DNA of 64,000 bases from the human T2T-CHM13v2.0 reference genome, Homo sapiens: the NCBI RefSeq assembly GCF_009914755.1, contig NC_060930.1, one strand, 5' to 3'. The notes beneath the pieces are model-generated. The model saw only the letters and a program-made list of their open reading frames with translations, was not told the DNA's origin and made no database searches. A program made the translations under genes and the position numbers. This document shows, in pieces, positions 23,238-59,458 of this stretch. Numbering within the stretch: position 1 is the first letter of the stretch; every line of letters starts with the position of its first letter.

Positions 23238-23319
23238 GTTACCAGAGAGAACTTCTCTATCAGAGGGAAGATGGCTCTTTCAGTGCTTTTGGGAATTATG
23301 ACCCTTCTGGGAGCACTTG
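23238..23319 (+). CDS. CD109: CD109 exon 24 ([18 protein letters not shown]...)
   Basis: gtctag| ... TG|gtaagt; DGSFSAF thioester-domain motif. Confidence 0.96.
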
Positions 23320-23744: not shown

Positions 23745-24391
23745 CAAACACTGATGGAATTAAGTATGAACAGCCAGTTTCCTCCAGACTGGAATCTCTA
23801 TGTGGCTGATTTTGGATGATTAATCTCTCTTCTTGTACTTATCTTCAATTTCCTATTTTACTCAGAAAAAGATTGACTTACTGTATCAATCAGGATAGAC
23901 TAGGAGTGCTGTGGTAACAACCAACCTACTCAATCTAAGCAATTAACAATGAAGGGATTTCTTGTTCATGCTGCCTTTCCATTGTGGTCAGCAGGGGGCT
24001 CTGCAGCTGCCAACGTGTCCACGTCTCCAAAAGGAGGCTCCAGGTTTGCCACAGCCCGGAAAGAGGAGGCTGGAGTCTATAGCACTGGCAATTAGAGACT
24101 TCATCCTGAGTGTATCATTTCTACTCATTTTATCCTTCTCAGAGCTGGTCACATGGCTATGCCTAACCTCACTGGGGCAGGAAAGTGAATTCCTCTGTGT
24201 AACCAAAGTAAAAGAGAACTGTATATTATTGAATATCAGTAATGTTTACCACATGAAACTTTATATAACATGAAACAGATCTGCTTCAAATTTTCTCTTG
24301 GCCTTGGCCTGACTCAGGATATAGAACCATAAATAGAAAGCTTTCAGTGTTGTATTGCTTGATGTTCTTTTTACCTCAGTATAGTGTTTTG

Positions 24392-24685
24392 TAGCAGGGA
24401 CTGGCAAACTTTTCTGTAAAGGGTCAGATTGTAAGTATTTCAGGCATTTTGGGCCGCGTAGAGTCTCCGTTGCATGCTCTTCCCTCTTCCTCCCTCTCCT
24501 CCCTCTTTCTTTCCTGTCTTTGTCTTTTTCTTTTCCTTCTTTTAAAACCCGCTCTTAGGTGGTGGTGTTGGCAGGTGGGGGCTGGGTTGGTGCACACATA
24601 AACAGGCCCTGGGCTGTATTTGGCTTGAGGGCCAGATTTGGGCCAGGCAGATTTGGCCCACAGGCTGCAGTTGGCTAACTCCCAT
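24392..24685. mobile_element. MER58-like hAT relic
   Basis: cagggactggcaaacttttctgtaaagggtcagat ... ggcccacaggctgcagttggctaac. Confidence 0.7.
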
Positions 24686-24906
24686 TCTATAGGAGAGAAA
24701 AATATCATTTTCCCCACCTGAAGTACTACAGTTTGCTTGTGAACTATGTATGCATTCTTCACCCACAGCTTTGGGGCTGACTGAAGCGTGTTGGAGCTCT
24801 TCTTTGGTAAATATCTAGAACAGTCCAAAGATGAATAACCTTGGACAATTTATTTAACTCTCTTGGACTGTCAGATTCTCAGTCTACAAAATAATGGAGC
24901 TGGATT

Positions 24907-26572
24907 CAACAGACACATTAAAAAATGCTCATCATCACTGGCCATCAGAGAAATGTAAATCAAAACCACAATGAGATACCATCTCACACCAGTTAGAATG
25001 GCGATCATTATAAAGGCAGGAAACAACAGGTGCTGGAGAAGTTGTGGAGAGATAGGAATACTTTTACACTGTTGGTGGGACCATAAACTAGTTCAACCAT
25101 TGTGGAAGACAGTGTGGTGATTCCTCAAGGATCTAGAACTAGAAATACCATTTGACCCAGCTGTGGGGAAAAGAAAGAGAGATCAGATTGTTACCGTGTC
25201 TGTGTAGAAAGAAGTAGACATAGGAGACTCCATTTTGTTCTGTACTAAGAAAAATTCTTCTGCCTTGAGATGCTGTTAATCTGTAACCTTACCCCCAACC
25301 CTGAGCTCTCTGAAACATGTGCTGTGTCAACTCAGGGTTAAAGAATTAAGTGCTGTGCTTTAGATATGCATACACATAAACATCTCAATGCCTTAAAGAG
25401 CAGTATTGCTGCCCGCATGTCCCACCTCCAGCCCTAAGGCAGGTTTCCCCTATCTCAGTAGATGGAACATACAATCGGATTTTATACCGAGACATTCCAT
25501 TGCCCAGGGACGGGCAGGAGACAGATGCCTTCCTCTTATCTCAACTGCAAAGAGGTGTTCCTTCTGCTTATACTAATCCTCCTCAGCACAGACCCTTTAC
25601 GGGTGTTGGGCTGGGGGACGGTCAGGTCTTTCCCTTCCCACGAGGCCACATTTCAGACTATCACATGGGGAGAAACCTTGGACAATACCTGGCTTTCCTA
25701 GGCAGAGGTCCCTGCAGCCTTCCGCAGTGTTTGTGTCCCTGGGTACTTGAGATTAGGGAGTGGTGATGACTCTTAACGAGCATGCTGCCTTCAAGCATCT
25801 GTTTAACAAGGCACATCTTACACAGCCCTTAATCCATTTAACCCTGAGTTGACACAGCACATGTTTCAGAGGGCACGGGGTTGGGGGTAAGGTTACAGAT
25901 TAACAGCATCTCAAGGCAGAAGAATTTTTCTTAGTACAGAACAAAATGGAGTCTCCTATGTCTACTTCTTTCTACACAGACACAGCAACAATCTGATCTC
26001 TCTTTCTTTTCCCCACACCCAGCCATCCCATTACTGGGTATATACCCAAAGGATTATAAATCATGCTGCTATAAAGACACATGCACACGTATGTTTATTG
26101 CGGCACTATTCACAATAGCAAAGACTTGGAACCAGCCCAAATGTCCATCAATGATAGACTGGATTAAGAAAATGTGGCACATATACACCATGGAATACTA
26201 TGCAGCCATAAAAAAGGATGAGTTCATGTCCTTTGTAGGGACATGGATGAAGCTGGAAACCATCATTCTCAGCAAACTATCGCAAGGACAAAAAACCAAA
26301 CACCACATGTTCTCACTCATAGGTGGAAATTGAACAATGAGAACACTTGGACACAGGAAGGGGAACATTACACACCGGGACCTGTTGTGGGGTGGGGGGA
26401 TGGGGGAGGGATAGCATTAGGAGACATACCTAATGTAAATGACGCGTTAATGGGTGCAGCACACCAACATGGCACATGTACACATATGTAACAAACCTGC
26501 ACGTTGTGCACATGTACCCTAGAACTTAAAGTATAATAAATAAAAATAAAATAAAATAAAATTAAATTAAAA
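24907..26572 (+). mobile_element. 5'-truncated L1PA 3' end (sense to CD109), interrupted by LTR5
   Basis: ORF2 C-terminal and 3'UTR sequence, A-rich tail; TSD aatggagctggatt at 24893-24906 and 26573-26586. Confidence 0.92.
25162..26017. mobile_element. HERV-K(HML-2) LTR5-derived palindromic element (U3 start at both ends)
   Basis: tgtggggaaaagaaagagagatcag at left, its reverse complement at right; TSD cccagc at 25156-25161 and 26018-26023. Confidence 0.92.
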
Positions 26573-26869
26573 AATGGAGCTGGATTAGATCATTTCTAAA
26601 TTCCTTTTCAAATCTGAGATTTTTGAGTCAACATGGAATTTCTTGGCCAAGCCCAAGTGGAAACCAGTTCTGCCTGCTAGAGAGAGTTGCTTACCTTGTC
26701 CCTTTGCTCTTTCTTTTTTGATTTTTTTCTTTCCTTGTTCCATCTTCAGTGATTCCCCCTTTGATGAATCTTCTGATGGGGGAAAAAGTGTTGTTGTTTT
26801 GCTTGCTCGGTGTTATTTGGTGGACCTTATAAAGTGTATTTTATGTAATTTTTTTCTCTTTTCATAAAG

Positions 26870-27098
26870 GTTGTCAGCTTTTGTTTTAAGATGTTTCCTT
26901 GAAGCCGATCCTTACATAGATATTGATCAGAATGTGTTACACAGAACATACACTTGGCTTAAAGGACATCAGAAATCCAACGGTGAATTTTGGGATCCAG
27001 GAAGAGTGATTCATAGTGAGCTTCAAGGTGGCAATAAAAGTCCAGTAACACTTACAGCCTATATTGTAACTTCTCTCCTGGGATATAGAAAGTATCAG
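26870..27098 (+). CDS. CD109: CD109 exon 25 (WLSAFVLRCF...GRVIHSELQGG...)
   Basis: cataaag| ... CAG|gtattt; His codon of VIH at 27012-27014. Confidence 0.96.
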
Positions 27099-28108
27099 GT
27101 ATTTCGTATTTAATTTAATAAATGATAGATGGGAAATTCAAGGAAGGTAGGTCTTAATGGGTCAAATATGTGTGTGGAAACTTAACAAGTTGCAGCTTTA
27201 CAACACATGTGAAATCTGAATTTGAGTACTCTTTTGCTTTGCATTTGTGGCCATGTTCCAAAATCTGAGAATAAAACATTAACCCACTCTTTCAGAATAA
27301 CTAAGAGAATTCTAAAAATGCTTTTTAATGTATGTATTGTACTTGCTATTGGTAAGATAAGTCAATACATGTTTTATCATTGAAAAAGTTAATTTCTGAG
27401 GGGAAAGAAAATTATTTAAAATTTGACAATGTGTTCTAGCAAGTTTAGATTGCAAAGGATTTTTTACTTATAAAACATCATGGAACAGTTACAATATCTG
27501 TTAATTTAGTGCTGAGAACACCCATACCCTGAAAAGTGTGTTGAATGGGCATGGATGCCTGGATGAGAATGAGTATGCGTGGAAAGGTATGCTGACGAGC
27601 TTAAGTTTGCTCCAGAGCTGTCCTGGTGATTGATGCCTTTACTGCTTACTGCCTGCTGCATTTTATGAGATCACCAAAGTCATTCTCTTTATTAGGACCC
27701 CCACTATTTTCCTATTCTACTAGTAGGCATGTAGAAGCTAAACTTTTCCTGAACTTAGGGCCGCACTACCAGAGATCAAATATAAGAAATATATTTCTCA
27801 AGCAGTTTGCTGTTCTTATCTGAGTCTGTGATACTGAGTGGGAGAAACACTGGCAAAAGCTCTACTTTTTTCTTCTAGGGAATGACACCTGTTTACTTAT
27901 AAAAACTGAAAAACAGTATTATTTTCAAAATGCATGGCAAATCTTTAAATGTCAATGATCATGGTTGATTTTCATTGCCTAGTACAAGGTCAGGTACTTC
28001 ATAGACACTGAACTTATTTTTTAAATGCATGTTTCAAAGTACTTTTTGTTTCAGTATGTGGTAATGGGTTACTCTGAATAGTAAAAAACATACTTTTTTT
28101 CTTCCAAG

Positions 28109-41349: not shown

Positions 41350-41917
41350 TAAAAGTAGAGCTACCATTTGACCCCACAATCCCGTTACTGGATATATACC
41401 CAAAGGACAATAAATTGTTCTACCAAAAAGCCACCTGCACTCATATGTTTATCACAGCACTAATTCACAATAGCAAAGACAGGTCATCGACCTAGGTGCC
41501 CATCAACTGTGAATTGGATAAATAAAATGTGGTAGATGTACATCATGGAATACTATACAGCCATAAAAAAGAACTAAATTATGTCTTTTGCAGCAACATG
41601 GATGCAGCTGAAGGTCATTATTCTAAGTGAATTAATGAAGAAACAGAAAACCAAATATCACATGTTCTCACTTATAAGTGGGAGCTGAACATTGGGTACA
41701 CATGGACATAAAAATGGGAACAGTAGACACTGGGGACTTCAAAAGTGGGGAGGGAGAGGGGGAATAAGGGCTGAAACACTCTCTATTGGGTACAATGTTC
41801 ATTATTTGGGTGACAGGATCAATAGAAGCCCAAACCTCAGCATCACATAATATACCCTTGTAACAAACTTGTACATGTACCCCTGAACAGTAAATAAATA
41901 AGTAACAAATAATAAAT
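41350..41917 (+). mobile_element. Older L1P 3' end
   Basis: diverged L1 3' end; TSD copy aaaatgggacttcttc at 41918-41933. Confidence 0.85.

Positions 41918-55635: not shown

Positions 55636-59458
<3,823 letters not shown>

What the first reader, a model, noticed from the sequence alone, without database searches (positions are those of the whole stretch)
25156..26023. Palindromic 'two-U3-ended' HERV-K LTR5 element with a clean 6-bp TSD
Seen: the 856-bp insert starts with the LTR5 5' end on + (25162-25342) and ends with the same 5' end on - (25837-26017). That gives 181-bp inverted arms with 5 mismatches by my count and a 494-bp spacer. It is flanked by a perfect CCCAGC duplication inside an L1. 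Known: HML-2 integrase makes ~6-bp TSDs, and normal solo LTRs have one U3 end and one U5 end. Here the 3' part (recalled polyA signal and U5) is replaced by an inverted U3 copy. The switch point falls where two LTR segments are quasi-complementary (GGTTAAATGGATTAAGGGCTGTG vs ggttaaagaattaagtgctgtg). Inference: either a fold-back reverse-transcription product was integrated via two U3 att ends (a MITE-like retroviral derivative with terminal inverted repeats), or a double template switch occurred after integration. In CD109 pre-mRNA it should fold into a ~180-bp dsRNA stem.
Basis: partly seen in the sequence, partly recalled or inferred. Interest (0 to 1): 0.8.

Follow-up and report, generated by a model that had tools for sequence, protein, structure and literature searches.

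The report
Palindromic HERV-K LTR with two heads
An old retrovirus remnant in a CD109 intron is a real, roughly 8-million-year-old HERV-K LTR fragment whose tail was replaced by a backwards copy of its own head, most likely before it was inserted, and two smaller remnants built the same way lie elsewhere in the genome.

Summary
Window 25162-26017 is an 856-bp insert with 181-nt inverted arms (5 mismatches), a 494-nt spacer and a perfect CCCAGC duplication in an L1 whose uninterrupted copy has one CCCAGC. The window minus strand carries LTR positions 1-679, then the reverse complement of about 178-1. The turn lies in a 20-22-nt patch where LTR 660-679 is quasi-complementary to 179-198. LTR 680-968, which holds the only AATAAA in 5 of 5 relatives, is missing. 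By printed indel criteria it is LTR5Hs-type HERV-K(HML-2). Arm divergence of 2.76% gives about 8 My (6-11.5 My; Poisson 2-27). Both arms share no derived change, so the duplication is about as old as the insert. The junction is unique in this genome, so it is not a multiplying MITE-like family. Two miniature elements on chr1 and chr3 have the same build: both ends at LTR position 1, a turn at microhomology and 5-6-bp duplications. Best reading: inverted U3-U3 DNA made before integration and inserted by integrase. Host template switching after integration is not excluded. Ape orthologues were not available.

The parts
25156..25161 (.). Left copy of the 6-bp target-site duplication (CCCAGC), L1 sequence
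   Evidence: an uninterrupted L1 copy in the window has one CCCAGC at this place.
25162..25338 (+). Fold-back arm: LTR positions 1 to about 177 on the plus strand, i.e. the inverted second copy of the LTR 5' (U3) end
   Evidence: element minus-strand 660-856 matches relatives' LTR 198-1 in reverse at 92-96%; 2 sites changed in this arm only.
25339..25358 (-). Switch patch: 20 nt that align both to LTR 660-679 and to the reverse complement of LTR 179-198; the element carries the 660-679 version at all three discriminating sites
   Evidence: overlap of the two alignments, query 660-679; alignment A2.
25339..26017 (-). Main LTR5Hs-type part: LTR positions 1-679 on the minus strand (antisense to CD109)
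   Evidence: 3.7-6.5% p-distance to 38 copies, no indel difference from 10 of them; printed subgroup criteria and motifs.
25343..25836 (-). 494-nt spacer between the arms (LTR about 182-675), the loop of the predicted hairpin
25837..26017 (-). Main arm: LTR positions 1-181 on the minus strand, partner of the fold-back arm
   Evidence: 2 sites changed in this arm only.
26018..26023 (.). Right copy of the 6-bp target-site duplication (CCCAGC)
25060..25161 (+). L1 sequence to the left of the insert (host of the insertion; the L1 extends further)
   Evidence: aligns with the L1 copy at 55850-56050; masked repeat 25050-25557.
26018..26120 (+). L1 sequence to the right of the insert (continues further)
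   Evidence: (masked repeat 25566-26580).

Best explanation
This is a HERV-K(HML-2) LTR5Hs-type insertion that was already palindromic when it entered the genome. A DNA strand of LTR sense polarity began at LTR position 1, the U3 end, which is where plus-strand synthesis starts. It ran to position 679. Its 3' end then paired with the quasi-complementary stretch 179-198 of a sense strand, either itself folded back or a second such strand, and was copied back to position 1. The result, once double-stranded, has a U3 terminus (TG...CA) at both ends. The viral integrase inserted it into an L1 in a CD109 intron and made the usual 6-bp duplication. This happened roughly 8 million years ago. Shown here: the architecture, the microhomology at the turn, the exact termini, the duplication, the uniqueness of the junction, the age of the arms, and the recurrence of the architecture at two other loci. 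Inferred: that reverse transcriptase (or host end-joining of two U3-end fragments) made the inverted join before integration; how the product became a blunt duplex; and that integrase paired two U3 ends. The element has no AATAAA and no copies, so today it is an inert intronic palindrome whose main predictable property is a stem of about 180-200 bp in CD109 pre-mRNA.
For: (1) Both ends are exactly LTR position 1 with TG/CA, abutting a perfect 6-bp duplication of a site that is single in another L1 copy. Full-length relatives show exact 6-bp duplications in 5 of 11 examined, plus 1 ambiguous 5/6. (2) The turn uses a 20-22-nt quasi-complementary patch, and the element keeps the 660-679 version through all three discriminating sites, as expected if a sense-strand 3' end annealed there and was extended. 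The patch exists in 11 of 11 relatives. (3) Polarised arm differences: of 181 sites, 171 have both arms like most relatives, 6 are split among relatives, 2 are changed in the main arm only, 2 in the fold-back arm only, and 0 are changed in both. LTR 182-679 has 11 of 482 sites differing from the 80%-or-more state. So the arms have been diverging for about as long as the element has. (4) Recurrence: C1:30752203-30752297 (about 95 nt; flanks CCCTTG / CTCTTG) and C3:182297620-182297765 (146 nt; flanks AGAGG / AGAGG) also have an LTR 5' terminus at both ends. Each runs LTR 1 to about 79, then the reverse complement of about 23 to 1, with TGATCT shared at the turn. (5) Print: self-priming of nascent retroviral DNA by reverse transcriptase is a known dead-end reaction (passages of PMC6088434), and about 20 nt of a U3 or U5 end is reported to suffice for integrase-mediated insertion (passages of PMC7240061).
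Against: No orthologous ape locus or other human haplotype could be examined, so an ancestral normal LTR at this site is not excluded. The zero shared-derived count has weak power: P(0) = 0.37, 0.14 and 0.05 if the fold-back had come after one quarter, one half or three quarters of the residence time. A simple fold-back gives a hairpin with only one open end. The step to a blunt duplex with two ends is unexplained and needs a second strand or a second molecule. Some integrases discriminate against U3 ends (HTLV-1, HIV-1, SIV; passage of PMC6705210); nothing was seen for HML-2. Host replicative inverted duplications with 1-15-bp microhomology are common in human genomes (PMC12350158). The census is thin: exact 11-mers at both ends, gaps 0-152 only, 2 true hits. 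No control census of U5-U5 pairs was run.
Confidence: 0.65

Rival explanations
1. An ordinary LTR5Hs solo LTR (or provirus) integrated in the minus orientation with a CCCAGC duplication. Later a host replication or repair error (fold-back, MMBIR or FoSTeS-type double template switch) copied LTR 198-1 in reverse after position 679 and returned to the flank exactly at the LTR end, replacing LTR 680-968.
For: Microhomology lies at the first junction. LTR ends are short imperfect inverted repeats (TGTGGGG... / ...CCCCTTCA in relatives), so a 2-nt CA, or an imperfect CCCC..CA, could guide the return switch. Inverted duplications with 1-15-bp microhomology, median 284 bp, are the commonest inversion class outside mobile-element insertions in 1,019 genomes (passages of PMC12350158). 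The timing test cannot exclude an early rearrangement.
Against: The second switch must land exactly at the LTR/duplication border with at most 2 perfectly matching bases. The same coincidence would be needed at both mini-elements, where more than 85% of an LTR would have to be lost while both termini and the duplications stay exact. No derived change is shared by the arms (0 of 175 informative sites).
Confidence: 0.22
2. Two independent LTR5Hs insertions in opposite orientation at the same spot, followed by a deletion between them at the quasi-homologous patch.
For: It would give two 5' ends and a junction at microhomology. Arms from two different copies need not be identical at the start.
Against: The second insertion would have had to enter exactly at the border between the first element's end and its duplication for the L1 sequence to continue seamlessly with one clean CCCAGC on each side. 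The same accident would be needed at two further loci.
Confidence: 0.03
3. A MITE-like derivative with terminal inverted repeats that has been copied around the genome.
For: It has terminal inverted repeats plus a target-site duplication.
Against: The 44-nt junction occurs once in the genome at up to 3 mismatches (1 forward, 0 reverse). In some searches only the window itself spans the whole element or the junction, among 40 of 3377 and 40 of 1118 candidates scored. The two mini-elements have a different junction and an older LTR type.
Confidence: 0.03
4. An assembly artefact (chimeric fold-back read) over a normal solo LTR.
For: Palindromes are a known source of sequencing artefacts (general knowledge).
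Against: The arms differ at 5 of 181 sites, with changes assignable to each arm; an artefactual fold-back would give identical arms. The right end abuts an intact duplication and L1 continuation. The missing LTR 3' part is not displaced elsewhere nearby.
Confidence: 0.02

Closest known systems
Ordinary HERV-K(HML-2) LTR5Hs solo LTR
   Same: 94-96% identity to 968-nt copies over LTR 1-679, TG...CA termini, a 6-bp target-site duplication, and the printed LTR5Hs indel state and motifs.
   Different: It has no U5 end. LTR 680-968 is replaced by an inverted copy of LTR 1 to about 178, so it cannot have arisen by the usual 5'-3' LTR recombination alone.
Self-primed ('snap-back') dead-end products of reverse transcriptase, e.g. 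TAR-dependent self-priming of HIV-1 minus-strand strong-stop DNA
   Same: A nascent viral DNA 3' end folds onto its own strand at a complementary stretch and is extended to the 5' end (passages of PMC6088434).
   Different: Those are minus-strand products seen in vitro and are described as dead ends. Here the strand has plus (LTR sense) polarity starting at U3 position 1, and the product is found integrated in the germ line with a duplication.
Host replicative inverted duplications (fold-back / MMBIR / ODIRA type)
   Same: An inverted copy of adjacent sequence joined at microhomology (PMC12350158 passages; PMC10766183 seen in a search listing only).
   Different: Here the inverted copy ends exactly at the LTR terminus next to an intact target-site duplication, at three separate loci.
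5'-inverted L1 insertions (twin priming)
   Same: A retroelement insert that acquires an inverted segment during insertion (mentioned in passages of PMC12350158; PMC2912911 seen in a search listing only).
   Different: A different enzyme and mechanism (target-primed reverse transcription). L1 inversion rearranges unique sequence, whereas here one segment is present twice. There is no poly(A) tail or L1-type target.
MITEs and other elements with terminal inverted repeats
   Same: Terminal inverted repeats flanked by a short duplication.
   Different: Single copy, no transposase logic, and the termini are retroviral att-type ends.

Membership tests
HERV-K(HML-2) LTR5, subgroup LTR5Hs | High nucleotide similarity to genomic LTR5 copies | tested here: met
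   39 of 39 other scored loci match LTR 1-679 at 95-96%. p-distance is 3.7-6.5% to 38 copies.
HERV-K(HML-2) LTR5, subgroup LTR5Hs | 4-base insertion near consensus position 461 (PMC3228705, Methods passage) | tested here: met
   The element, L001, L005, L056 and L061 carry 4 bases that L019 lacks at L001 position 460. Only one contrasting copy showed the clean 4-base gap; L015 is ambiguous there.
HERV-K(HML-2) LTR5, subgroup LTR5Hs | Lacks the LTR5A insertion near position 135 and the insertion shared by more than 99% of LTR5A/5B further 3' (PMC3228705) | tested here: met
   No extra block of 3 bases or more relative to L001 anywhere in 1-679. L015 (1002 nt) and L019 carry extra blocks of 8 nt at 622 and 22 nt at 659 that the element lacks.
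HERV-K(HML-2) LTR5, subgroup LTR5Hs | Motifs printed as conserved specifically in LTR5Hs (TATA box, NF-kB, TP53-1, TP53-2, POU2F1; PMC9430305) | tested here: met
   4 of 5 are present exactly (positions 532, 584, 604, 644). The NF-kB motif is not exact. L015 and L019 have 0 of 5.
Standard solo LTR | One U3 end and one U5 end (complete U3-R-U5) | tested here: not met
   Only LTR 1-679 is present. Both ends are LTR position 1. AATAAA, at 793-795 in 5 of 5 relatives, is absent.
Integrase-mediated retroviral insertion | TG...CA termini and a 5-6-bp target-site duplication of a site that is single when empty | tested here: met
   Relatives: exact 6-bp duplications in 5 of 11, and 1 ambiguous.
Reverse-transcription fold-back (self-priming or copy-choice) product | Strand starts at a defined priming site and turns at a complementary stretch | tested here: met
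   Both ends are at LTR position 1, and the turn is in the 20-22-nt patch with the donor version kept. The same logic holds, with TGATCT, in the two mini-elements.
Reverse-transcription fold-back (self-priming or copy-choice) product | Made by the viral polymerase before integration | not testable with these tools
   Only indirect support: timing and recurrence.
MITE-like multiplying family | Several copies of the same structure at different sites | tested here: not met
   The junction is unique at up to 3 mismatches. Closed regions are not shown by the tool.
Host replicative inverted duplication | Microhomology at breakpoints; the inverted copy ends at no special place | tested here: inconclusive
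   Microhomology is present at the turn. But the far end coincides with the LTR terminus and the duplication.

The most novel reading that the evidence does not exclude
HML-2 left a small, recurrent class of germ-line fossils that are not solo LTRs. They are integrase-inserted palindromic U3-U3 by-products of viral DNA synthesis. Each starts at the plus-strand priming site, turns back at a microhomology and returns to the start. This would be a natural record that the integrase can pair two U3 ends in vivo, and that fold-back products are not always dead ends.
Probability: 0.55. Interest if true: 0.65.

Novelty: new variant of a known kind. Interest (0 to 1): 0.55.

Why it matters
Solo LTRs are normally read as leftovers of proviruses that recombined. 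If this reading is right, some LTR fragments never belonged to a provirus at their site. They would be direct fossils of failed DNA synthesis that was still integrated. That bears on how LTR counts and ages are interpreted, on what retroviral integrases accept in vivo, and on where long intronic dsRNA stems come from. For CD109 the practical point is a predicted 180-200-bp stem in an intron of the pre-mRNA. No annotated functional element overlaps it.

Tried and rejected
Rfam: no family matched 24000-27200 at E up to 1.

Exhaustive search for inverted pairs of LTR termini: a wide-gap pattern was not accepted, and the single-terminus listing is capped at 100 of 2741 rows. Only gaps of 0-152 were scanned, with exact 11-mers. 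The results were 0, 0, 2 loci (one true, one with no LTR5-like interior; the backwards control found 1), 0 and 1.

Print-labelled anchors for the subgroups (5' LTRs next to three proviruses named in papers) could not be fetched. I used printed indel criteria and motifs instead.

Dating by star-tree terminal branch was rejected as uninformative. The element's branch is 2.2-2.3%, the median of 35 copies is 2.3%, and L056, which I only tentatively place at a provirus printed as human-specific, has 2.5%. This statistic mostly measures diversity that predates integration.

My first guess from memory that the copy was LTR5A/5B-like was wrong.

L012 and L011, which extended a few bases past the junction, are ordinary LTRs.

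Literature: no description of a two-5'-end LTR5 turned up. The one CD109 + LTR5 paper concerns other, non-reference insertions (passages).

Full report
OBSERVATION. The repeat finder reports inverted arms at 25162-25342 and 25837-26017: 181 nt, 97% complementary, 494 nt apart. My own count gives 5 mismatches. The 856-bp insert starts TGTGGGG and ends CCCCACA, with CCCAGC on each side. The flanks are L1. Another L1 copy in the same window (55850-56050, minus strand) aligns continuously across the site with one CCCAGC, so the 6-bp duplication was made by the insertion. RefSeq lists only masked repeat here and no functional element. The site is in the CD109 intron between the exons at 23238-23319 and 26870-27098.

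ANATOMY. The window's minus strand is the main LTR orientation. In the own-genome search, 39 of 39 other scored loci match minus-strand positions 1-679 (or 2- or 5-679) at 95-96%. The last 197-208 nt match the same loci's 5' ends in reverse, and only the window covers 1-856 (40 of 3377 candidates were scored). Against 12 fetched LTR-only loci, the element's 1-679 equals LTR 1-679 and its 660-856 equals the reverse complement of LTR 198-1. The 20 nt shared by both alignments (window 25339-25358) is a patch where LTR 660-679 resembles the reverse complement of LTR 179-198. Alignment A2 shows three discriminating sites in the patch, and the element has the 660-679 version at all three. The switch lies in the final four bases of the patch. 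This is the signature of a sense-strand 3' end that annealed to a sense-strand template and was extended down to position 1. The patch is present in 11 of 11 full-length relatives. Relatives are 968 nt long. LTR 680-968 is absent, and with it the only AATAAA, which sits at 793-795 in 5 of 5 relatives; the element has none on either strand. I did not determine the U3/R/U5 borders. 'U3 end' here means the LTR's 5' end, by convention.

FAMILY. PMC3228705 (passages and Table 1 read) gives printed criteria. LTR5Hs has a 4-base insertion near position 461. LTR5A has an insertion near 135. LTR5B has neither. A further insertion 3' of these is shared by more than 99% of 5A/5B. The printed lengths are about 1002-1004 nt for 5B/5A.

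An unselected sample of 40 chr1 sites carrying the 12-base terminus sorted as follows:
- 16 had no LTR5 match.
- 11 were SVA SINE-R-like (LTR 1-329 joined to 694-about 804).
- 9 were more or less full LTR5 copies.
- 3 were truncated.
- 1 was inverted (L036).

Two of the nine, L015 (1002 nt, 78% identical to L001) and L019 (81%), are of the older kind. L019 lacks 4 bases at position 460 that the element, L001, L005, L056 and L061 have. Both L015 and L019 carry extra blocks of 8 and 22 nt at 622 and 659 that the element lacks. The element also has 4 of the 5 motifs that PMC9430305 (passages) prints as conserved in LTR5Hs; L015 and L019 have none. So the element is HERV-K(HML-2), LTR5Hs-type.

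AGE. The two arms were identical when made if they were copied from one molecule, so they work like the two LTRs of a provirus. Five differences in 181 sites is 2.76%. With the printed clock of 0.24-0.45% per My per LTR pair (PMC3228705), this gives 6.1-11.5 My, or 8.1 My at 0.34%. The Poisson range on 5 events widens this to about 2-27 My. Differences that no relative shares have similar density in LTR 182-679 (5 of 482) and in the arms (1 and 2 of 175). The star-tree branch (2.2-2.3%) is no better than that of copies likely to be much younger, so I do not use it. The prediction is that the insert predates most human-specific HML-2 insertions and is probably shared with at least chimpanzee. 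This could not be tested, because no primate genomes are on hand.

TIMING OF THE DUPLICATION. I polarised the arm differences against 35 LTR5Hs-type copies, by column shares only. Of 181 sites:
- 171 have both arms like most relatives.
- 6 are split among the relatives.
- 2 are changed in the main arm only.
- 2 are changed in the fold-back arm only.
- 0 are changed in both.

The rest of the LTR differs from the 80%-or-more state at 11 of 482 sites. If the inverted copy had been made late, changes accumulated before it would be shared by both arms. P(0 shared) is 0.14 if it was made at half the residence time and 0.05 with a quarter of the time remaining. The duplication is therefore about as old as the insert, though an early rearrangement cannot be excluded.

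IS IT A FAMILY? The 44-nt junction occurs once in the genome at up to 3 mismatches. A 90-nt junction query is spanned only by the window: 37 of the 39 other scored loci start at the patch, and 2 extend a few bases further and are ordinary LTRs. So it is not a multiplying, MITE-like family.

The architecture does recur, however. L036/L073 (C1:30752203-30752297, about 95 nt) and L074 (C3:182297620-182297765, 146 nt) both begin and end with the LTR 5' terminus in inverted orientation. They are flanked by CCCTTG / CTCTTG and AGAGG / AGAGG respectively. Each consists of LTR 1 to about 79 followed by the reverse complement of about 23 to 1, with TGATCT common to donor and acceptor. The chr3 element has a further internal inverted duplication. 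Both are of an older LTR5 type: 95-98% identical to many 78-nt LTR ends, but 88.5% to L001. An exact-motif census of gaps 0-152 found only these two true cases. It needs 22 exact bases, so decayed copies are missed, and larger sizes were not scanned.

MECHANISM. Three loci with both ends at LTR position 1, TG...CA termini, a turn at microhomology and 5-6-bp duplications are most simply explained if the inverted DNA existed before integration and integrase joined two U3 ends to the target. Position 1 of the LTR is where plus-strand synthesis starts (established retrovirology; scheme in PMC6088434). That naturally defines both ends if a plus strand turns back on a plus strand. Self-priming by reverse transcriptase is well documented in vitro (PMC6088434 passages), and about 20 nt of a U3 or U5 end is reported to suffice for integrase (PMC7240061 passages).

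What I cannot derive is how a fold-back strand, which forms a hairpin with one open end, became a blunt duplex with two ends. Mutual extension of two plus strands annealed at the patch would give it directly. So would host microhomology-mediated joining of two U3-end fragments. The sequence does not tell these apart.

The main rival is a host double template switch after a normal integration. It is supported by the frequency of such inverted duplications in human genomes (PMC12350158 passages) and by the short inverted repeat at LTR ends. But it needs the return switch to land exactly at the LTR border, and it needs this at three loci. I put the pre-integration reading at 0.65 and the post-integration reading at 0.22. 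Double insertion, a MITE-like family and assembly artefact are each at 0.03 or less. The artefact reading is contradicted by arms that differ at 5 sites with changes on both.

CONSEQUENCE TODAY. Folded as RNA, 25150-26030 pairs the arms over roughly 180-200 bp: -503 kcal/mol, 20 shuffles at -253 +/- 8, z = -29.9. CD109 pre-mRNA contains this stretch. Editing or small RNAs are plausible but untested.

NOVELTY. I found no description of such two-5'-end LTR5 insertions. Absence from the searchable library is not proof. I rate it a new variant of a known kind, with moderate interest.

Noticed in passing
L073 304-398 (G000 C1:30752203-30752297): A 95-nt mini-element with an LTR5 5' terminus at both ends (LTR 1 to about 79, then the reverse complement of about 17-23 to 1), flanked by CCCTTG / CTCTTG. 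It is of an older LTR5 type. Found by accident in the chr1 sample.
   Followed up: yes
L074 321-466 (G000 C3:182297620-182297765): A 146-nt near-palindrome with TGTAGGGAAAAG... and ...CTTTTCCCTACA ends, flanked by AGAGG on both sides. It has the same TGATCT turn as the chr1 mini-element, plus a second internal inverted duplication.
   Followed up: partly
L018, L020, L034, L037-L039, L041, L042, L045, L048, L049 (chr1): 11 of 40 chr1 sites carrying the 12-base LTR terminus are SVA SINE-R-like pieces (LTR 1-329 joined to 694-about 804). This explains much of the 1375 + 1366 genome-wide motif count, against 244 + 238 for the control.
   Followed up: no
L015 and L019 (chr1), LTR positions about 622 and 659: The older 5A/5B-type copies carry an extra 22-nt block exactly where LTR5Hs has the quasi-complementary patch used for the turn, so this fold-back site may be specific to LTR5Hs.
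   Followed up: no
G000 C3:54776448-54776532: An 85-nt stretch with the terminal 11-mers in inverted orientation but no LTR5-like interior. It is taken as a chance match, since the backwards control also gave one.
   Followed up: no
window 41363-41377 and 55946-55960: Two further L1 copies in the window carry the same target-region sequence. The second served as the empty-site comparison.
   Followed up: partly
G000 C1:44978345 (+) and C1:44986655 (-): Two SVA-like pieces (L048, L049) lie 8.3 kb apart in convergent orientation. Not examined further.
   Followed up: no
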